This document shows, one piece after another, positions 2,976 to 52,587 of a DNA stretch of 64,000 nucleotides. A program made the translations under genes and the position numbers. The first letter of the stretch is position 1. Each line of letters opens with the position of its first letter. The notes under the pieces are model-generated. The model saw only the letters and a list, made by a program, of their open reading frames with translations, was not told where the DNA came from and made no database searches. The stretch is from Escherichia phage vB_Ec-G1, in sequence record PQ433349.1. One strand, given 5' to 3'.

Positions 2976-3168
2976 TTACTACCTCCATACGATCTAAAAA
3001 GTCATTCACAAATCTCCAATAACGTTGACCTGTTCTAAGATCTTCATAGATAACAACAGGATCAAACACTTTAGATATTCCGGCAGGTTTTGGAAATTCC
3101 ACGACCGTATATAAGCCACCTTTTGATACACAAGAATAGGTTACACCTGTAATTGGATATTTGCTCAT
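2929..3168 (-). CDS. hypothetical protein
   Basis: 79 aa ORF. Confidence 0.45.
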   Translation of the reverse strand: MSKYPITGVTYSCVSKGGLYTVVEFPKPAGISKVFDPVVIYEDLRTGQRYWRFVNDFLDRMEVVSGENTEEVIKAKERY

Positions 3169-3359
3169 TTCTTTACGTACTCCATGATTGGGGTATGGTC
3201 GCCAGTGAGCGTCACACGGTTGTAGGAAACGTTTTGTGTCTTCAACGTCTCAATCCATTCCAGGAAATGTTCTTTCGCTTCTGTGTAGTTCTGGGTGCCT
3301 TTAACAACATGAATATCATCCAGGGTGACACGGAATACCATTTGAATAACGTCTTTCAT
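3165..3359 (-). CDS. hypothetical protein
   Basis: 64 aa ORF. Confidence 0.45.
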   Translation of the reverse strand: MKDVIQMVFRVTLDDIHVVKGTQNYTEAKEHFLEWIETLKTQNVSYNRVTLTGDHTPIMEYVKK

Positions 3360-3455
3360 TTCTTACCTCCTTTGCTGTCAAAATAGCTTACCAGAACATC
3401 GTGAACCACACAAATGGCGAAAATCAGAACAATTGTTGCCAGGACTGGGTGCTCA

Positions 3456-3779
3456 CTAATTAGTGCTATCATCTTTAACTACCTCCAGTTGCCTTTCGAG
3501 TTTAACTTTGTTTGAGAACTGATAATGACACAGCTTACAATCAATGTCAACAATCTGATCGTGATTTAACCCTACAATTTTAACTTCCTTTGCACCATCC
3601 CACTCTAAGTATTCGAAGTCTGATAAACAACTACTCTTACTTAAAATAAAATCCACCTGTTGCCACTCCACCTGCATATCATCGATATGATAAGCTGCAC
3701 AGAATACATCATGGTAGTAAAATGCTATCATAACCATCTTTTCATCAATAGCAACTACTTCCCGCCTTGTAAATCTCAT
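3456..3779 (-). CDS. hypothetical protein (first gene of leftward early operon)
   Basis: 107 aa ORF immediately left of divergent intergenic region. Confidence 0.5.
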   Translation of the reverse strand: MRFTRREVVAIDEKMVMIAFYYHDVFCAAYHIDDMQVEWQQVDFILSKSSCLSDFEYLEWDGAKEVKIVGLNHDQIVDIDCKLCHYQFSNKVKLERQLEVVKDDSTN

Positions 3780-4030
3780 TCTAGCCTCCTAAACGCGTCT
3801 CTGACGCACTTTTTATATATAAGATGATAAATCACCTTACCTCGTAAGTAAACTTGCTCTACGAGCCTCTTATGAAGCTTGTGTTATAGGCTATACTATT
3901 GCTACCTGCTTAAGCAAGGTTTTTGCACACAGAAAATAATTTTAATAAAACTCTTGACTTTTGTGTTCGAAGTATGCTACCCTAGAAATCTATTAACGAG
4001 CGCAGCGAGTTAAGGTTTTAGGTTGTTGAT

Positions 4031-8662: not shown

Positions 8663-8671
8663 GGAGGAAAT

Positions 8672-10747
8672 GTGGCAAAGAAAAAGGCAGCAGGTAGTTT
8701 AGCTGGAGTAGATATTGAAGTAAAGGCTCAACCAGGTAAACAGACTCTTGCAATGGATTTAATGCCAGAAGTTATGATTTATGGTGGTGCCGCTGGATGT
8801 GTTTCTGCTGAAACGGAATATCTTACAAAAGATGGTTGGAGACAGATTAGTGAATATTCAGGAGAGGATATTTACCAATACAACCCTAAGAATAAGCGTT
8901 TAGAATTGGTAACACCTTATTTTGTAGAATACGATTTAAATGGAGATAACCTATACAGAATAACAAATGGTGTAGGGTTGTTCCAAGAACTTAGTATGGA
9001 ACACCGTTTTGTATTCTATAAGAAAAAGAAATCAAAGAAACATTTCGAGATTCTTGTAGGAGATCTTATTGCATTACAGCAAATAGGAAAACCCCTTCAA
9101 GGTTATGTAGAAAATCCATTCGGTAAACGTGTTCCTTTTAACATACCTGGTAAAAAGAGCACTTACTTAAAAATACACGAGGTTATTTCAACAGATGATA
9201 AGAAATATTGTTTTGAGACTCCAAGCAGTTATATTGTCTTTAGACGTGGCGATCACTGCTTCGTTACTGGGAATAGCGGCAAGTCTCGTCTGCTATTGCT
9301 GAAAGCTTTAAAATACGCCTACAAAGATCCTTTGTTTGGTGGAATACTTTTTCGTAAGAACACCACTGCTCACCGTAAACCAGGTGGTCTGTTTACAGAA
9401 GCAAAACGTTTGTATCTTCCTTTACAACCGCACGTAAAAGAAAGTACAATGGATATCATTTTTGAAGCCACTGGTGGCGGAACCCTCAAATTCGACCATT
9501 TGGAAAATGATAACGTAACAGCAGAAACAAACCATCAGGGTACACAGTATTCAATGGTAGGTTTTGACGAGTTAACCCACTTCACGCAATATGAAATGCT
9601 CTATCTTCTGGGACGTATGCGTTCAGAATCAGAAACAAGCTTCATGTTGTGCACATGTAACCCCGATGCAGATAGTTGGGTTTTGAATTGGGTGTTACCT
9701 TATCTTGATGAGGGTGGTTATCCTAGAGAAGATATGTGTGGTAAACAAAAATATTTCATCATTGTTAACGATGAACCTGTTTTTGCTGACACACCTGAAG
9801 AACTGAAAGAAAAATATCCAGAAAACTGTTTCATGGAAAACCCTAATACAGGGGAGACAGTTGTTATTGAACCACAAACTTTCGTATTTATTGGTGGGAC
9901 AATATTTGATAACCCAGAACTGATTAGGCTTAACCCTAATTACTTAGCACAGCTTAAATCACAAACAGCAATTAAAAGAGCACAGCTTCTGGATGGTTGT
10001 TGGTTTGCACGTATTCAGAAAGAATCTTTCTTTCAACGTGAATGGTTACATAAAATATCTTATAAAGATGTTCCTAACAATCTTAAACTAATGCGAGCCT
10101 GGGATAAAGCTGTTTCAGTTCCTACAGAAACTTATCGTTATCCAGACTATACAACGTCTGTCAAAATGGGTAAAGATCAAGATGGTAATATCTACATCTT
10201 TGGTGACTATGACTATGACGCTGTGGATGAGAAAAGTAAAATTTTCGGAAGGTTTAGAAGACTACCTGGGGAAAGGGATAATCTGATTCTTAATCAATGT
10301 AAGATTGATGGACCAGAAGTTACAGTAGTGCTTCCTAAAGACCCATCTGGTGCTGGGACAATAGAATATACAGAGTCTGCAAAGAAACTTATTCTAGAAG
10401 GTTTTGTTGTTAAACCAGATGCTATGCCAGGTAACAAGAAAAAGCTTCAGCGTTTTATGCCTTTTAGTAGCGCGTGTCAAAATGGTTTTGTTTATATTGT
10501 TGAAGATTCTTTCCCTAATGTGGAAACTCTAACCCACTTTTATAAAGAATTGGAATCTTTCAATGGTGAAAGATCTACAGCCACTATTAAAGATGACATT
10601 CCCGATGCTGCTGCTTCTTGTTTCAATACTCTGTCAAAAGAGAATACTTTCAAGGCAGTAGCTATCCCTGCAACAACAAATGCTCCTACAGGATACAGTA
10701 GAATGAACAGCGGATTTCACCAACCGTATAGTGTCCGTAAAAGATAA
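8672..10747 (+). CDS. terminase large subunit, intein-containing precursor
   Basis: 691 aa; GTG start after AAGGAGG; Walker A split as GGAAG/SGKS around an insert, Walker B MVGFDELTHF; C-terminal nuclease-like region. Confidence 0.85.
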   Translation: MAKKKAAGSLAGVDIEVKAQPGKQTLAMDLMPEVMIYGGAAGCVSAETEYLTKDGWRQISEYSGEDIYQYNPKNKRLELVTPYFVEYDLNGDNLYRITNGVGLFQELSMEHRFVFYKKKKSKKHFEILVGDLIALQQIGKPLQGYVENPFGKRVPFNIPGKKSTYLKIHEVISTDDKKYCFETPSSYIVFRRGDHCFVTGNSGKSRLLLLKALKYAYKDPLFGGILFRKNTTAHRKPGGLFTEAKRLYLPLQPHVKESTMDIIFEATGGGTLKFDHLENDNVTAETNHQGTQYSMVGFDELTHFTQYEMLYLLGRMRSESETSFMLCTCNPDADSWVLNWVLPYLDEGGYPREDMCGKQKYFIIVNDEPVFADTPEELKEKYPENCFMENPNTGETVVIEPQTFVFIGGTIFDNPELIRLNPNYLAQLKSQTAIKRAQLLDGCWFARIQKESFFQREWLHKISYKDVPNNLKLMRAWDKAVSVPTETYRYPDYTTSVKMGKDQDGNIYIFGDYDYDAVDEKSKIFGRFRRLPGERDNLILNQCKIDGPEVTVVLPKDPSGAGTIEYTESAKKLILEGFVVKPDAMPGNKKKLQRFMPFSSACQNGFVYIVEDSFPNVETLTHFYKELESFNGERSTATIKDDIPDAAASCFNTLSKENTFKAVAIPATTNAPTGYSRMNSGFHQPYSVRKR
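8798..9274 (+). mobile_element. mini-intein (159 aa) inserted in terminase Walker A P-loop
   Basis: insert begins Cys43 (CVSAETEYLTKDGW), has TxxH-like SMEH, ends ...FVTGN201 followed by Ser; excision restores GGAAGSGKS. Confidence 0.7.
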
Positions 10748-48848: not shown

Positions 48849-49015
48849 TATACTTCTAAACGGAAAGTTTCTTTAGATACAAAATCGTATCCACCTTTTT
48901 CAAGCCAGTCATTGTAAACCTCATCGGCTTGAGACTCTATCATAAAATACCGAGTGATAACTTCGTCTCCGACAATACGCACAATTTTATAGCAAATCAT
49001 GATACCATTTCCCAT
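48849..49015 (-). CDS. hypothetical small protein (not in ORF track)
   Basis: 55 codons MGNGIMICYKIVRIVGDEV...; ATG after GGAGGAAG, TAATG coupling to upstream gene. Confidence 0.4.
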
Positions 49016-49206
49016 TAATCTTCCTCCAGATCAATTTCATTATAACAATGTATGCAGAAACCATCATTGTGCATATGTTGTTCATAGGACATATCTTTAC
49101 CACAAGACCAACAACGGATATCCCCATCGTCCCATTCACGTTCTTCTTCACCTTCAAATTCATCTGGTAGGTAAGGCATACCAAGACAATCTAAATCGTA
49201 ATGCAT
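49015..49206 (-). CDS. small zinc-ribbon-like protein
   Basis: 63 aa; CWSCG...CIHCY; RBS AGGAGGAG. Confidence 0.5.
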   Translation of the reverse strand: MHYDLDCLGMPYLPDEFEGEEEREWDDGDIRCWSCGKDMSYEQHMHNDGFCIHCYNEIDLEED

Positions 49207-49254: not shown

Positions 49255-52200
49255 CTAGTGACAGGACGCCCAGGAGTTACCCACATCATATCCGGCAGTA
49301 AGCTGAACATTAAGATTGTAAAATTCTCCAGCCTTAGTAACAGCTAAAGCAGCAAGTTCACCTGCCCGACTATAGGCTGTAAACCATCCACCTTTGGGAG
49401 ATTCATGAATGTTAGCCCAAATTTGCCCTGTCTCTTTTTCCTTATTATGCTTCCATTCTTCAACTTTAGCAAGGCATTCTTTATCAATTTTCTTTTGTTC
49501 TTCAGGATCGTCTACTTTCTTCCAACCTAATGATTCAGGTGAAAACCATTTAAATTCTACAAGGTTACGAGAAACTTCAAGCTGGGCTTCATCGTGATAT
49601 GCAATCATTTGTTGCACGAAGTCTTTATTCTTCCAGTCATCTTTAAAGAAGTCAACACTTAGCCCTTCTTCTTCGATCATGTCGTCATAAATAACCATTG
49701 CACGTTTAGCACAGATAACCCCACCACTTTGGAACAGAGAGTTAAGAATCGCGTGAGCAGAACGAGTAGGAACCTTACGACCGTCAATACCCAAAACATA
49801 CTGTTTACCAGTCTTAACCCAGAAATCGTTTAAACGTTCTTTAAGACGCGCCAGTGGGAATGCAGCTTCCCAGAAAGCATCGAACACCAACTGACCTGTA
49901 AACTTATCGCTACCAATTGTTTTAGCAACCTTGTCGGCTTGTGCACCATAAGTAATACCATACTTAACAGATTTAGCAGGACTACGTTCAAATTTACGTC
50001 CAATAGTTTCAGTGATACGTTTTGCCATCATTGTGTGAACATCATTAGGTTTCTCTAACAACAGAGCGTTACAATATTCATGTGGCTCCGGCTCGTACCG
50101 CCAACAGTTTCCTGTGATGGTAATGCAGTCTTTCTGACGCATGACCCACGTACCAAGTTCTGTTTGTGGACACCAAACATCCTCTACACCCCACTCTTCA
50201 ATAGTCAAACTTTGAACAGGAATGTGAGAGCGGTTAGCCAATGTTACCACTTTTACTTTCTGCTCTTTTGTATTGAAAGCTACAGAGATATTGCCTCCAT
50301 GCACCAGGTACGAGGCAGTTAAAGCTGCTTCAAAAAGTTCACCTGGGTTCTGCGCCCAACGCCAAACAGGTTTTTGTTTATGTTCATGCCAGTAACCATC
50401 TGCAATCAAGAAACCTTCCAAGAAAGCTACACGCTCGGCATGAGACATATTAACTACACGCTCTACCCACGGAACATCCCATTTACCTTGTTGAACAGAA
50501 GTTAAACTATTTACCTGATCTTGTTCCATGTTAAATGGAGCATTACAAATAATATTATCTCCTGTGCAAAGCTCGGCAGTTGTTCTGACTTTAGGCACAT
50601 AAGTATTCCCTTTACTACGGGTATTAACATACCAACGGTGATCTGCTGTTGCACGGTAAGTGTGTGATTTCCCTTTAATCTCAAACGTCTTACTATTTTT
50701 ATAGAAGACCTTACCTTTTACTTTAGTCCATTCTTTCAGACCTGTTTCAGCATTGTACCCTAAAATCTCATCCCCTTCCTTCAGGTCGTGATATCCTACC
50801 CAACCTTTACGAGTCAAAGCTTGAGCATCCATCGGCACACAGTAGTGTGACTCAATCTTTGCTTCCAAAGAGTCGAAGTCATAACCGATCTGGAAGTATT
50901 TAGGAACTTCTACACCAAACAAGTTACGCATCTCCCATCCAAACAAAGATGTGACACGAGGAATATTAGCTACAGATCTATGTTTCATACGAGAGGTTGC
51001 AGCATCACATGTAGCGGCTGGGGTAGGAATACGCCCATCTGCCCTTACTGCGGCTAAGAAACCTTTATCGTATTCTTGATCTTCTTCATCTTCTTCCCAA
51101 TCAGCACCGCCACCTAAAATAGAGTTCCTACGATGCTTATACGTTAAGTATTCTACAATCTGTGTAGCATAGGGAAATTTCTCACCCAAAGCTTGCAAAT
51201 TGGGACAGATTTCTTTTTCCTGACCTTTGGTAAAACATGGGTTAGTCAATACTTTAAGACCGCGACCTTTACCTTTTGCTATACGCTCTTGAATCTTCCT
51301 TTCCAAGGTTTCCGGTGTGCACTCCAGATGATCACAACGGTCCTGACAAAAATTAGAAGATAAAGTTTGCTCAACGTAAGCTCGAATACCTTTCTGAAGT
51401 TCTTCCTCACTCTTTTTAATCTTGGTGCCAGATTTAAGAGTCAAATCTTTATCTTTATATTCTGATGGTACCCAACCTAATCCTACAAGCCAGTTTTTAA
51501 TATGGGTTGTATCGTTCAATGTTGCAGGGATGTTAGGATCACACAGAGGCTCATCTGCTGCAACTGGCAGTTTCCACTCTTTCCCCAACATAACTAACCA
51601 CCAATCGCCATCCCTCTCTTCCAAATGACCATCATGTTTCTTAGCAAAATTGATCATATGGTTAGTTGGTTCTAGGTTCTTTTTAATTTGCAATTTAGGC
51701 GGAATAAAAGCTTTAAGATAACCTTTTGTTGCTGGTTTAGGTGGCAAAATAGGCTCAACGAGTAAACGAAGACGCTCCATTTCTGCATCCAAAAAAGCAA
51801 GGTTCTCTTCTGCTTGTTTCATGTTAAAAGCAAACCCACGGTGTTCCTGGCGTGTAATAATGTCTGCTACACGTTGTTCAAGTTCAAATGGACCTTCCCA
51901 TTTATCATAATCACCCCATTCTTCCATAAGGTAATTATATACGCTCGTATTGGCTTTGTTGTCATAGATACAGTAATAAAGCATATCCGCAGCAAAAGTC
52001 TTAAATCGATCTTCTTCTGGAATCTCTTTACGGAAATCTATTTTTACATCACCACCTGCTTTTCGAGAAAGTGCTGCCAAGCTATGTCCTGATTTGCCCT
52101 CAATCTTTCGATCTGGGTTTAACACTTTACTCAAAATCAAGGAGTCAATAAGTTTTACCTTATTTTTGCCCCACGTATTATATTTAACACTGTAATCTAA

Positions 52201-52587
52201 TCCATAAAACAGTTTTGTAGCCAACCAGTCGTAGTTGATACCGTTGTGAGCCACAGCCATTTCAACCAGATATTCAGGCTTGTCTTTAAAATAACCTTCA
52301 TGATTAATAAAATCTGGGAAATCTTTTAGTTGAAAATGCGTGTAATCTTGCGCCACATACTCTTTAAGAACATATGTGTATTTACCATCTGACTCTTCAT
52401 AAGGACGCCCATCAAAGATGTATTTAGGGCCATCGTGGAAAGCTACTATTTCTCCTGTTTCATGGTTCTCTAAGACAATACAGTGCATTTGAAATGTGTC
52501 TTTGAGACGATAAGGACTAGCTAAATAATCAATAGTGTCATTATTCAACAATCCGTTTGCTTCAATATCCCATGTAAACTTACTCAC
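49255..52587 (-). CDS. family A DNA polymerase with 3'-5' exonuclease domain, intein-containing precursor
   Basis: 1110 aa; exo motif DIEANGL; motif A GYDFDSLEAKIESHY, motif B RSPAKSVKYGITYG, motif C YHDEAQLEV; GTG start after AAAGGAGG. Confidence 0.9.
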   Translation of the reverse strand: MSKFTWDIEANGLLNNDTIDYLASPYRLKDTFQMHCIVLENHETGEIVAFHDGPKYIFDGRPYEESDGKYTYVLKEYVAQDYTHFQLKDFPDFINHEGYFKDKPEYLVEMAVAHNGINYDWLATKLFYGLDYSVKYNTWGKNKVKLIDSLILSKVLNPDRKIEGKSGHSLAALSRKAGGDVKIDFRKEIPEEDRFKTFAADMLYYCIYDNKANTSVYNYLMEEWGDYDKWEGPFELEQRVADIITRQEHRGFAFNMKQAEENLAFLDAEMERLRLLVEPILPPKPATKGYLKAFIPPKLQIKKNLEPTNHMINFAKKHDGHLEERDGDWWLVMLGKEWKLPVAADEPLCDPNIPATLNDTTHIKNWLVGLGWVPSEYKDKDLTLKSGTKIKKSEEELQKGIRAYVEQTLSSNFCQDRCDHLECTPETLERKIQERIAKGKGRGLKVLTNPCFTKGQEKEICPNLQALGEKFPYATQIVEYLTYKHRRNSILGGGADWEEDEEDQEYDKGFLAAVRADGRIPTPAATCDAATSRMKHRSVANIPRVTSLFGWEMRNLFGVEVPKYFQIGYDFDSLEAKIESHYCVPMDAQALTRKGWVGYHDLKEGDEILGYNAETGLKEWTKVKGKVFYKNSKTFEIKGKSHTYRATADHRWYVNTRSKGNTYVPKVRTTAELCTGDNIICNAPFNMEQDQVNSLTSVQQGKWDVPWVERVVNMSHAERVAFLEGFLIADGYWHEHKQKPVWRWAQNPGELFEAALTASYLVHGGNISVAFNTKEQKVKVVTLANRSHIPVQSLTIEEWGVEDVWCPQTELGTWVMRQKDCITITGNCWRYEPEPHEYCNALLLEKPNDVHTMMAKRITETIGRKFERSPAKSVKYGITYGAQADKVAKTIGSDKFTGQLVFDAFWEAAFPLARLKERLNDFWVKTGKQYVLGIDGRKVPTRSAHAILNSLFQSGGVICAKRAMVIYDDMIEEEGLSVDFFKDDWKNKDFVQQMIAYHDEAQLEVSRNLVEFKWFSPESLGWKKVDDPEEQKKIDKECLAKVEEWKHNKEKETGQIWANIHESPKGGWFTAYSRAGELAALAVTKAGEFYNLNVQLTAGYDVGNSWASCH
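50107..50841 (-). mobile_element. intein (245 aa) with LAGLIDADG-type homing endonuclease motif in DNA polymerase
   Basis: insert starts Cys583 right after motif A, has TxxH-like TADH, LEGFLIADG, ends ...ITITGN827 followed by Cys828; separates motifs A and B. Confidence 0.75.

What the first reader, a model, noticed from the sequence alone, without database searches (positions are those of the whole stretch)
50107..50841. LAGLIDADG-containing intein between motifs A and B of the family-A DNA polymerase
Polymerase motif A (GYDFDSLEAKIESHY) is followed directly by C583-VPMDAQALTRKGWVGYHDL..., a 245 aa insert containing a TxxH-like TADH, one LAGLIDADG-type motif (LEGFLIADG) and ending ...CITITGN827 followed by Cys828 before motif B (RSPAKSVKYGITYG). 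Excision leaves an ~865 aa polymerase of ordinary size. Only one LAGLIDADG motif is visible, so the endonuclease may be degenerate or act as a dimer.
Basis: partly seen in the sequence, partly recalled or inferred. Interest (0 to 1): 0.75.

Follow-up and report, generated by a model that had tools for sequence, protein, structure and literature searches.

The report
Mobile intein in phage DNA polymerase
The phage's DNA polymerase gene is interrupted by a real 245-residue self-splicing protein insert (an intein); this is an ordinary kind of selfish element, but it carries only half of the usual DNA-cutting module.

Summary

New here:
- It belongs to a large family of ~250-aa inteins, mostly in phage PolA. 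All have a single LAGLIDADG domain with a conserved acidic residue (117/120) and an invariant Gln.
- That domain is under strong purifying selection (dN/dS about 0.04).
- The intein is patchily distributed and has crossed between phage genera.
- It carries the class 3 'WCT' triplet together with an invariant Cys1 and a penultimate Gly.

The most likely mechanism is a spliced-out intein whose endonuclease works as a homodimer. This is inferred, not shown. Interest is moderate.

The parts
49255..52587 (-). Intein-containing family-A DNA polymerase precursor gene (1110 aa, GTG start, includes the stop codon)
   Evidence: ORF list. Pfam DNA_pol_A E 2e-11 above its cut-off. PHROG 17 'DNA polymerase' E 4e-106. 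99.8% identical to the ESCO5 polymerase.
50842..52587 (-). N-extein (polymerase residues 1-582: exonuclease region, and motif A GYDFDSLEAKIESHY at 50842-50886)
   Evidence: 100% aa identity to residues 1-582 of the intein-less phAPEC8 polymerase. Motif A translated.
50107..50841 (-). Intein, 245 aa (Cys1 ... Gly244-Asn245)
50533..50841 (-). N-terminal half of the HINT splicing domain (intein residues 1-103: block A Cys1, block B Thr65-x-x-His68-x-Trp70)
   Evidence: Translation. Family profile matches mini-inteins in the PDB: Spl DnaX E 1.4e-6, AceL NrdHF E 2.4e-5. C1, T65 and H68 are 120/120 and W70 is 119/120 in the family.
50212..50532 (-). Linker plus a single LAGLIDADG half-domain (intein residues 104-210; helix 134-148, strands 149-152 and 159-164, helix 168-180, strands 185-190 and 196-201)
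50395..50421 (-). LAGLIDADG-type motif LEGFLIADG (intein 141-149; putative catalytic Asp148)
   Evidence: Translation. Family consensus is R.AFL.GF[LI][LVI]ADG. Position 148 is D in 105 and E in 12 of 120; G149 is present in 118/120.
50107..50211 (-). [quoted passage not shown]
   Evidence: Translation. C224, T243 and N245 are 120/120 and G244 is 119/120. The C224-to-N245 spacing of 21 equals that of the class 3 inteins MchDnaB1 and MP-Be DnaB (PMC7664689, PMC2807308).
49255..50106 (-). C-extein (Cys+1 at 50104-50106; motif B RSPAKSVKYGITYG at 49945-49986; remainder of the polymerase; stop at 49255-49257)
   Evidence: 100% aa identity to phAPEC8 residues 583-865. Translation.

Best explanation
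This is a genuine, mobile intein in the family-A DNA polymerase of a Phapecoctavirus.

Splicing. The gene is translated as a 1110-aa precursor. The HINT domain then excises residues 583-827 and joins Tyr582 to Cys828, giving the 865-aa polymerase that intein-less sister phages encode directly. The residues involved are Cys1, Thr65/His68, Asn245 and Cys+1. Cys224 of a class-3-type W-C-T triplet may also take part.

Homing. Between the two halves of the HINT domain sits one LAGLIDADG half-domain instead of the usual two. The most likely mechanism is that two excised intein molecules, or precursors, pair through their LAGLIDADG helices. That would form a two-active-site endonuclease like I-CreI or I-CeuI. 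It would cut the uninterrupted ...ESHY|CWRY... site of an intein-less polymerase gene in a co-infecting phage. Recombinational repair from the intein-carrying copy would then copy the intein in (homing).

Shown: the precise insertion, the fold, residue conservation, purifying selection, the patchy distribution and exchange between genera.

Inferred: splicing itself, dimerisation, DNA cleavage and which cysteine starts the reaction.

Sub-confidences: is an intein 0.98; splices 0.9; endonuclease domain is functional 0.6; acts as a homodimer 0.45.
For: Intein identity:
- phAPEC8 polymerase is 99.9% identical and lacks exactly these 245 codons.
- Cys1, TxxH, terminal Asn and Cys+1 are present and invariant in 120 family copies.
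- AlphaFold with a 35-sequence alignment gives pLDDT 94.2 and pTM 0.91.
- tblastn finds related inteins in Gordonia phage tape-measure, TerL and portal genes.
- A penultimate Gly has a splicing-competent precedent in the Bethlehem RDF intein (PMC5050341).

Single LAGLIDADG domain that is probably functional:
- The sister 324-aa intein has two motifs, and the window intein aligns only to the second.
- Of the top 158 family proteins, 119 inteins match end to end, with lengths 228-263 aa.
- D/E148 is present in 117/120, G149 in 118/120, Gln164 in 120/120, and position 143 is a small residue in 119/120.
- dN/dS of the domain is 0.038 against phi92. Against KP13-16 it is 87% identical at aa level but only 74% at nt level.

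Mobility:
- 33-34 phage records carry the intein, while 82 of 104 have an uninterrupted site.
- Intein dS between genera is 0.14-0.48, against 1.25-3.5 for the exteins.
- In UAB_1, VEcB and cardinal, codons ~621-827 plus 16 nt of C-extein are 100% identical to the window, beside flanks that are about 83% identical.
- The intein sits on at least four flank haplotypes, including ones identical to intein-less alleles.
- In contrast, the endonuclease-less TerL mini-intein in the same window is fixed in 68/72 records.
Against: - No experiment exists for splicing, dimerisation or cleavage.
- The intein-less target shows no palindromic symmetry around the insertion point: best 5 of 11 symmetric pairs, null mean 5.8. 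A simple symmetric homodimer would be expected to prefer symmetry, although I-CeuI shows this is not obligatory (own knowledge).
- The beta-hairpins of the half-domain are short (strands 149-152 and 159-164), so the DNA-binding surface may be small.
- Purifying selection on the domain could simply reflect the need to keep an intein in an essential polymerase folded and splicing.
- In KP13-16 the intein has diverged about as much as its extein (77% against 74-76% nt). That fits long vertical inheritance.
- The partial conversions in UAB_1-type inteins are recombination between two intein-carrying alleles, not homing into an empty site.
- Curated profiles do not reach threshold: Pfam Intein_splicing 16.3 bits against a 35.8 cut-off, LAGLIDADG_3 12.9 against 22.5; NCBIfam and PHROGs find nothing.
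Confidence: 0.6

Rival explanations
1. The intein is real, but its half endonuclease is a dead relic. It would be what is left after loss of the first LAGLIDADG half-domain of a two-motif ancestor. The intein would then persist by vertical descent and ordinary phage recombination. The domain would be conserved only because the intein must fold and splice in an essential polymerase.
For: - Two-motif relatives exist, and the window intein lacks their first half-domain.
- The target site has no symmetry.
- The KP13-16 intein has diverged in step with its extein.
- UAB_1-type mosaics show intein-to-intein recombination.
- PhoVMA is a documented intein with a degenerate but structurally intact endonuclease domain (PMC8966425).
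Against: - The catalytic-position acid is kept in 117/120 members, and Gln164 in 120/120, of a family at only 31-52% identity. In PhoVMA exactly these residues are lost.
- The single-domain form is the majority architecture in very many exteins and sites, not a one-off.
- Relatives that lost the domain entirely also exist (P0005 against P0002). So the domain is dispensable for the fold, and its retention needs another reason.
- The intein is patchily distributed among near-identical phages and is younger than its exteins between genera.
Confidence: 0.3
2. The single LAGLIDADG domain works without dimerising. It would act as a one-active-site nickase, positioned on DNA with help from the HINT domain. 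Phage recombination-dependent replication would turn the nick into a break that drives homing.
For: - There is only one active-site helix per chain.
- The target is asymmetric.
- In PI-SceI the splicing domain contributes to DNA binding, and nicking homing endonucleases such as I-HmuI do drive homing in phages (own knowledge, not tested here).
Against: - The conserved small residue at position 143 (G/S/A in 119/120) fits helix-helix packing.
Confidence: 0.08
3. The 245 aa are not an intein but a lineage-specific polymerase subdomain. A further alternative is an intein that is moved in trans by a neighbouring free-standing homing endonuclease gene.
For: - Pfam and NCBIfam do not call an intein at their thresholds.
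- Most GenBank records annotate the gene simply as DNA polymerase.
- In phi92 the upstream gene is annotated 'potential Endonuclease/Hydrolase'.
Against: - Polymerases that are 99.9% identical function without the segment.
- The segment has all the intein splice-junction residues and a HINT fold.
- Intein-plus and intein-minus Phapecoctavirus loci are collinear, with the same neighbours (a methyltransferase upstream, small ORFs downstream), and no endonuclease gene differs between them.
Confidence: 0.02

Closest known systems
Intein annotated in Escherichia phage PaulScherrer (Bas60, MZ501100, 'intein-containing DNA polymerase precursor') and in phage SD2 (PQ821640); the same element is present unannotated in phi92 gp159
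   Same: Same insertion site, same length (245 aa), 97.6% aa identity.
   Different: It sits in a different genus (Justusliebigvirus), whose exteins are only 77-86% identical. DNA identity of the intein is 91.8%. The window's allele, which is identical to that of ESCO5, is annotated only as 'DNA polymerase'. No functional study or discussion was found.
Two-motif LAGLIDADG inteins: PI-SceI, PI-PfuI, PI-PkoII, TliVMA intein
   Different: Those have two half-domains in one chain (blocks C and E) plus accessory or DNA-recognition regions, and are 360-540 aa. This one has a single half-domain and is 245 aa. It also has a penultimate Gly instead of His.
Homodimeric single-motif LAGLIDADG endonucleases: I-CreI, I-MsoI, I-CeuI (intron-encoded)
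   Different: Those are free-standing proteins of about 160-210 aa with longer beta-hairpins and, mostly, pseudo-palindromic targets. Here the domain is about 80 aa, is embedded in an intein, and the target shows no symmetry. Dimerisation is untested.
Class 3 inteins: MP-Be DnaB, MchDnaB1, MsmDnaB1, AceL NrdHF
   Different: Class 3 inteins are defined by lacking an N-terminal nucleophile. Here Cys1 is invariant (120/120). +1 is Cys in the window, whereas class 3 is nearly always Ser or Thr. The family looks like the 'class 1 inteins with Cys at F:4', or the phage progenitor type, discussed in PMC3196547.
324-aa motif-B intein of Phapecoctavirus nepoznato, ukendt and nieznany (MN850571 and others)
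   Same: Same intein family (33% identity; CVP.D start, TGN|C end, WCT triplet) and the same host gene.
   Different: It is inserted 50 residues downstream, inside motif B (KYG|CTYG). It has two LAGLIDADG motifs. The two inteins were not seen together in one gene among the alleles examined.

Membership tests
Intein (HINT self-splicing protein element) | In-frame insertion with precise boundaries, absent from otherwise near-identical orthologues | tested here: met
   phAPEC8 polymerase is 99.9% identical and lacks exactly 245 codons; 735-bp clean indel. 82/104 records have an uninterrupted site.
Intein (HINT self-splicing protein element) | Splice-junction residues: Cys/Ser1, block B TxxH, C-terminal Asn, +1 Cys/Ser/Thr | tested here: met
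   C1, T65, H68, N245 and C+1 are present. Each of the four intein residues is 120/120 in the family; +1 is S in 53, C in 37 and T in 29.
Intein (HINT self-splicing protein element) | Penultimate His (block G:6), typical but not obligatory | tested here: not met
   Gly244 (G in 119/120). A splicing-competent precedent with penultimate Gly is the Bethlehem RDF intein (PMC5050341).
Intein (HINT self-splicing protein element) | HINT fold | tested here: met
Intein (HINT self-splicing protein element) | Match to curated intein profiles above their thresholds | tested here: not met
   Pfam Intein_splicing 16.3 bits against a 35.8 cut-off. NCBIfam has no hit. PHROGs has no hit. The family is poorly covered by curated models.
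Intein (HINT self-splicing protein element) | Protein splicing actually occurs | not testable with these tools
   Inferred: the polymerase is essential, and the intein-plus phages are viable isolates.
Intein-embedded two-motif LAGLIDADG homing endonuclease (PI-SceI type) | LAGLIDADG helix ending in a catalytic acidic residue, within an alpha-beta-beta-alpha-beta-beta core | tested here: met
Intein-embedded two-motif LAGLIDADG homing endonuclease (PI-SceI type) | Two LAGLIDADG motifs or half-domains (blocks C and E) in one chain | tested here: not met
   There is only one helix and half-domain. About 79 aa are missing relative to the two-motif relative in nepoznato.
Intein-embedded two-motif LAGLIDADG homing endonuclease (PI-SceI type) | Site-specific cleavage of the intein-less allele | not testable with these tools
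   There is only indirect evidence of mobility.
Homodimeric single-motif LAGLIDADG endonuclease (I-CreI type) | Single motif per chain | tested here: met
Homodimeric single-motif LAGLIDADG endonuclease (I-CreI type) | Homodimer formation through the LAGLIDADG helices | not testable with these tools
   Only a monomer could be modelled. A small residue is conserved at helix position 143 (119/120), which is compatible with helix packing.
Homodimeric single-motif LAGLIDADG endonuclease (I-CreI type) | Palindromic or pseudo-palindromic target | tested here: inconclusive
   Best symmetry at the empty site is 5/11, against a null mean of 5.8. There is no support, but asymmetric targets are known for homodimers such as I-CeuI (own knowledge).
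Class 3 inteins | WCT triplet: Trp B:12, Cys F:4, Thr G:5 | tested here: met
   W70 in 119/120, C224 in 120/120, T243 in 120/120. The spacing is the same as in MchDnaB1 and MP-Be DnaB (PMC7664689, PMC2807308).
Class 3 inteins | No N-terminal Cys/Ser/Thr nucleophile | tested here: not met
   Cys1 in 120/120. 3 of 37 WCT inteins in InBase also began with Ser or Cys, and their class was left open (PMC2807308).
Class 3 inteins | Block F branched thioester intermediate; Cys F:4 essential | not testable with these tools
   Needs C1A and C224A mutants in a splicing reporter.

The most novel reading that the evidence does not exclude
This intein would represent a large, so far undescribed class of compact (~250 aa) phage inteins whose homing endonuclease is a single LAGLIDADG half-domain. 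Such an enzyme would have to assemble from two intein molecules, which would make it the first obligately homodimeric intein endonuclease. The alternative is a one-active-site nickase. The same family combines an invariant Cys1 with the full class 3 W-C-T triplet. It could therefore be the living form of the phage 'progenitor' from which class 3 inteins were proposed to arise, or it could splice by a hybrid route using both cysteines.
Probability: 0.4. Interest if true: 0.65.

Novelty: new member of a known kind. Interest (0 to 1): 0.4.

Why it matters
- Annotation. Most GenBank records of these therapeutic-candidate coliphages call the gene simply 'DNA polymerase I'. Curated profile libraries miss the intein. 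A 2024 paper states that no inteins have been reported in coliphages (PMC11162368).
- Size of the family. Recognising it (2220 cluster representatives, mostly in phage PolA) would correct many annotations.
- Biology. A 245-aa intein with a half-size LAGLIDADG module would, if active, be the smallest LAGLIDADG-bearing mobile intein. It would be a natural test of whether intein endonucleases can work as homodimers.
- Evolution. The coexistence of mini, one-domain and two-domain forms in one family mirrors the homodimer-to-monomer evolution proposed for free-standing LAGLIDADG enzymes.
- Splicing mechanism. The Cys1 + WCT + Gly-Asn combination bears on how class 3 splicing arose.
- Tractability. 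The natural pair ESCO5-type (intein-plus) and phAPEC8-type (intein-minus), both on E. coli K-12-compatible hosts, makes homing directly testable.

Tried and rejected
- Single-sequence AlphaFold failed (pLDDT 36). It succeeded only with a 35-sequence family alignment.
- Pfam, NCBIfam and PHROGs gave only sub-threshold hits or none for the insert.
- phmmer of the insert, or of an artificial mini-version without the middle domain, against PDB sequences gave only weak, partly pseudo-symmetric matches. These could not be used to align block F to class 3 inteins. The block positions therefore rest on published numbering.
- The word-indexed homologue search returned only 9 proteins. The exhaustive HMMER search was needed.
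- A test for palindromic symmetry of the empty site was negative.
- A search for SNPs perfectly linked to the intein, as a fixed co-conversion tract, found none.
- Tori & Perler 2011 and the phi92 genome paper are not held.
- Rejected readings: a polymerase subdomain (refuted by intein-less alleles) and mobilisation in trans by a neighbouring endonuclease gene (the loci are collinear).
Full report
**Observation.** The finding lies in a minus-strand gene, window 49255..52587, encoding a 1110-aa protein.
- Pfam recognises family-A DNA polymerase in the C-terminal part (E 2e-11, above its cut-off). PHROGs recognises DNA polymerase on both sides of the insert.
The plus strand is full of stops.
- Every quoted motif was verified at its coordinates: motif A, TADH, LEGFLIADG...CITITGN, Cys+1 and motif B.

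**What the window is.** tblastn against phage genomes shows the window is a Phapecoctavirus (Stephanstirmvirinae), 99.8% identical in this protein to phage ESCO5.

**The decisive comparison.** Phage phAPEC8 encodes a polymerase that is 99.9% identical but 865 aa long.
- In the alignment the only difference is a gap of exactly residues 583-827...KIESHY|CWRYEPE....
- At DNA level the two loci are collinear over 5.6 kb at 97-98.6% identity. The one exception is a clean 735-bp insertion.
The segment is not a conserved polymerase subdomain.

**Is it an intein?**
- The splice-junction chemistry is complete: Cys1, block B Thr65-x-x-His68, C-terminal Asn245 and Cys+1.
- Curated profile libraries are nearly blind to it. 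Pfam Intein_splicing scores 16.3 bits against a 35.8 cut-off, LAGLIDADG_3 scores 12.9 against 22.5, and NCBIfam and PHROGs find nothing.
- An exhaustive HMMER search of 1.84 billion representative proteins found 2220 relatives at E<=0.001 and 78 at E<=1e-30.
- With 34 of these as an alignment, AlphaFold gave a confident model (pLDDT 94.2, pTM 0.91). The single-sequence run had failed.
- The intein identification is therefore secure.
- It is also not new as an annotation. GenBank record MZ501100 (phage PaulScherrer, BASEL collection) annotates the 97.6%-identical 245-aa segment at the same site as mat_peptide 'intein', and PQ821640 does likewise.
- The BASEL paper mentions only that inteins were identified during annotation. 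A 2024 paper states that no inteins have been reported in coliphages. No paper in the held library discusses this element.

**The endonuclease part.**
- Between the HINT halves the model has a helix at 134-148 (ending in LEGFLIAD148G), strands at 149-152 and 159-164, a helix at 168-180, and strands at 185-190 and 196-201. This is one alpha-beta-beta-alpha-beta-beta LAGLIDADG half-domain.
- Other Phapecoctaviruses (nepoznato, ukendt, nieznany and others) carry a different, 33%-identical, 324-aa intein. It lies 50 residues downstream, inside motif B (KYG|CTYG).
- That intein has two motifs (FLGWLLSDGY and FLEAFWMADGH). The window intein aligns to the second and lacks the roughly 79 residues of the first.

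**Relic or working module?** Several results favour a working module.
- *Architecture.* Among the top 158 family proteins, 119 inteins match the query end to end. Their lengths are 228-263 aa (median 251) at 31-52% identity, so the one-domain architecture is the norm. About 35 relatives are 300-375 aa two-domain forms, and a few are 140-165-aa mini-inteins.
- *Conserved residues.* The motif consensus is R.AFL.GF[LI][LVI]ADG. The catalytic-position residue is Asp or Glu in 117/120 and is followed by Gly in 118/120. Gln164 at the end of strand 2 is invariant. From my own knowledge this is where I-CreI has active-site Gln47. Helix position 143 is always small, G/S/A in 119/120.
- *Contrast with a known relic.* The documented degenerate PhoVMA endonuclease has lost exactly the catalytic acids (PMC8966425).
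- *Selection.* Nei-Gojobori analysis of window against phi92 gives 17 synonymous and 3 non-synonymous changes in the middle 100 codons (dN/dS 0.038). This is as constrained as the splicing parts. Against KP13-16 the domain is 87% identical in protein but 74% in DNA.
- *Caveat.* An intein in an essential polymerase is under selection to fold and splice whatever its nuclease does.

**Mobility.**
- The intein is present in 33-34 phage records. A 200-nt probe across the empty site finds an uninterrupted junction in 82 of 104 records.
- Between genera the intein is much younger than its host gene. Its dS is 0.14-0.48, against 1.25-3.5 for the exteins.
- In UAB_1, VEcB and cardinal the first ~38 intein codons are about 80% identical to the window. 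Codons ~621-827 plus 16 nt of C-extein are 100% identical, and the flanks beyond that are about 83% identical. This is a recent conversion tract that ends at the splice junction.
- I compared seven intein-plus and seven intein-minus Phapecoctavirus alleles. No flanking SNP is perfectly linked to the intein, and it sits on at least four flank haplotypes. WPEC1 and anhysbys match intein-less alleles right up to the junction.
- That pattern is what repeated precise insertion with variable co-conversion would give. General recombination could contribute as well.
- In contrast, a 159-aa endonuclease-less mini-intein of the same family sits in the terminase P-loop of this window (8798-9274, plus strand). 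It is fixed in 68 of 72 records, including phAPEC8.

**Mechanism proposed.**
- *Splicing (inferred).* The HINT domain excises the 245 residues and joins Tyr582 to Cys828, restoring the phAPEC8-type enzyme just after the motif-A helix.
- *Homing (inferred).* A LAGLIDADG active site is built from two motif helices. The simplest way for a one-motif intein to cut DNA is therefore to pair two intein molecules, as I-CreI or I-CeuI do.
- *Against a simple symmetric dimer.* The empty site has no palindromic symmetry, with best 5/11 against a null mean of 5.8.
- *Alternatives.* A dead relic (0.3), a HINT-assisted monomeric nickase (0.08), and mobilisation in trans (very unlikely, since the intein-plus and intein-minus loci have identical neighbours).

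**An unexpected detail: the class 3 triplet.**
- The family carries the class 3 'WCT' triplet. Trp70 is two residues after the block B His (119/120). Cys224 is at block F:4 (120/120). Thr243 is two residues before the terminal Asn (120/120).
- The Cys-to-Asn spacing of 21 is the same as in MchDnaB1 (His65/Trp67/Cys124/Thr143/Asn145) and MP-Be DnaB (Cys320/Thr339/Asn341) (PMC7664689, PMC2807308).
- Yet Cys1 is also invariant, the penultimate residue is Gly, and block F:13 is Val rather than His.
- Class 3 is defined by the absence of an N-terminal nucleophile, so the intein fails that test. It resembles the rare 'WCT inteins beginning with Ser/Cys' whose class was left open. It also resembles the 'class 1 inteins with Cys at F:4' and the phage progenitor postulated for class 3 (PMC3196547).
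- Which cysteine initiates splicing cannot be decided computationally.
- A penultimate Gly is compatible with efficient splicing in a mycobacteriophage intein (PMC5050341).

**Host range of the family.** Of 53 host proteins scanned, 33 are family-A DNA polymerases. Others are DnaB-like helicases, Toprim primases, a UDG and several DUFs. At least 35 copies sit in PolA motif B. Three (P0012, P0019, P0022) sit at the same post-motif-A site as the window (..HY|T[YW][KR]YD).

**Verdict.**
- The element is an ordinary kind of thing, a mobile intein in a phage replication protein, and it is already annotated as such in one related genus. The novelty class is therefore 'new member of a known kind' and the interest is moderate (0.4).
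- The single half-size LAGLIDADG module conserved across a large family, and the Cys1 + WCT + Gly-Asn combination, are the features worth a specialist's attention.
- They are directly testable with the natural ESCO5-type and phAPEC8-type phage pair.

Noticed in passing
window 8798-9274 (+), inside ORF 8663..10744: A second intein sits in the window. It is a 159-aa mini-intein with no endonuclease domain, in the large terminase subunit, inserted in the Walker-A P-loop (MIYGGAAG|CVSAETEYLTKDGW...HCFVTGN|SGKSRLLLLK). It has the same family hallmarks: Cys1, Cys 21 residues before the terminal Asn, and a Thr-Gly-Asn end; B:12 is Phe. It is fixed in 68/72 related phage records, including phAPEC8.
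   Followed up: partly
L004 (MN850571 nepoznato) 3001-3972; also ukendt, nieznany, AV126 and 'Campylobacter phage' A145/C3/A110a: Sister Phapecoctaviruses carry a different 324-aa, two-motif LAGLIDADG intein of the same family, 50 residues downstream inside polymerase motif B (KYG|C..TGN|CTYG). In these alleles the stretch between the two sites is strongly divergent (HY|TWRYDNPDHAY against HY|CWRYEPEPHEY). This changes the +1 Cys of the first site to Thr. It could be a co-conversion tract from a distant donor and/or could make the first site immune.
   Followed up: partly
window 50107-50841 (-): intein residues W70, C224, T243 with C1 and G244: The class 3 intein 'WCT' triplet is invariant in this family, together with an invariant Cys1 and a penultimate Gly. 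This combination does not fit the definitions of class 1 or class 3 cleanly.
   Followed up: partly
L007 (UAB_1), L009 (VEcB), L010 (cardinal): polymerase codons 583-832: The Justusliebigvirus inteins are mosaics. The first ~38 codons are about 80% identical to the window. The remaining ~207 codons plus 16 nt of C-extein are 100% identical, beside flanks that are about 83% identical. So there was a recent inter-genus conversion with one breakpoint inside the intein and one at the splice junction.
   Followed up: yes
P0029 (288-545 and 567-809), P0041 (294-552 and 574-801), P0050, P0058, P0072: Some metagenomic host proteins carry two inteins of this family about 20-50 residues apart in one protein. 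P0005 is a mini-intein derivative of P0002 in which the LAGLIDADG domain is deleted.
   Followed up: no
L003 (OQ031492 MRostami-2023b) 2250-2975 approx.: This 'UNVERIFIED' record has Ns across almost the whole intein while the flanks are 99.7% identical to the window. The assembly was probably scaffolded on an intein-containing reference, so its intein status is unknown.
   Followed up: no
phage records MG065650, MG065645, MG065656, MG065689: Several records named 'Campylobacter phage' (B15, A145, C3, A110a; some marked UNVERIFIED) are near-identical Phapecoctavirus genomes, 98.9-99.9% identical to this E. coli phage in polymerase and terminase. The host label looks doubtful.
   Followed up: no
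window 49015-49206 (-): A small ORF lies just downstream of the polymerase. It is 63 aa, acidic, with CxxC...CxxC spacing (..IRCWSCGKD...DGFCIHCYNE..), so it may be a zinc-ribbon protein. It is conserved as a 'hypothetical protein' in phAPEC8.
   Followed up: no
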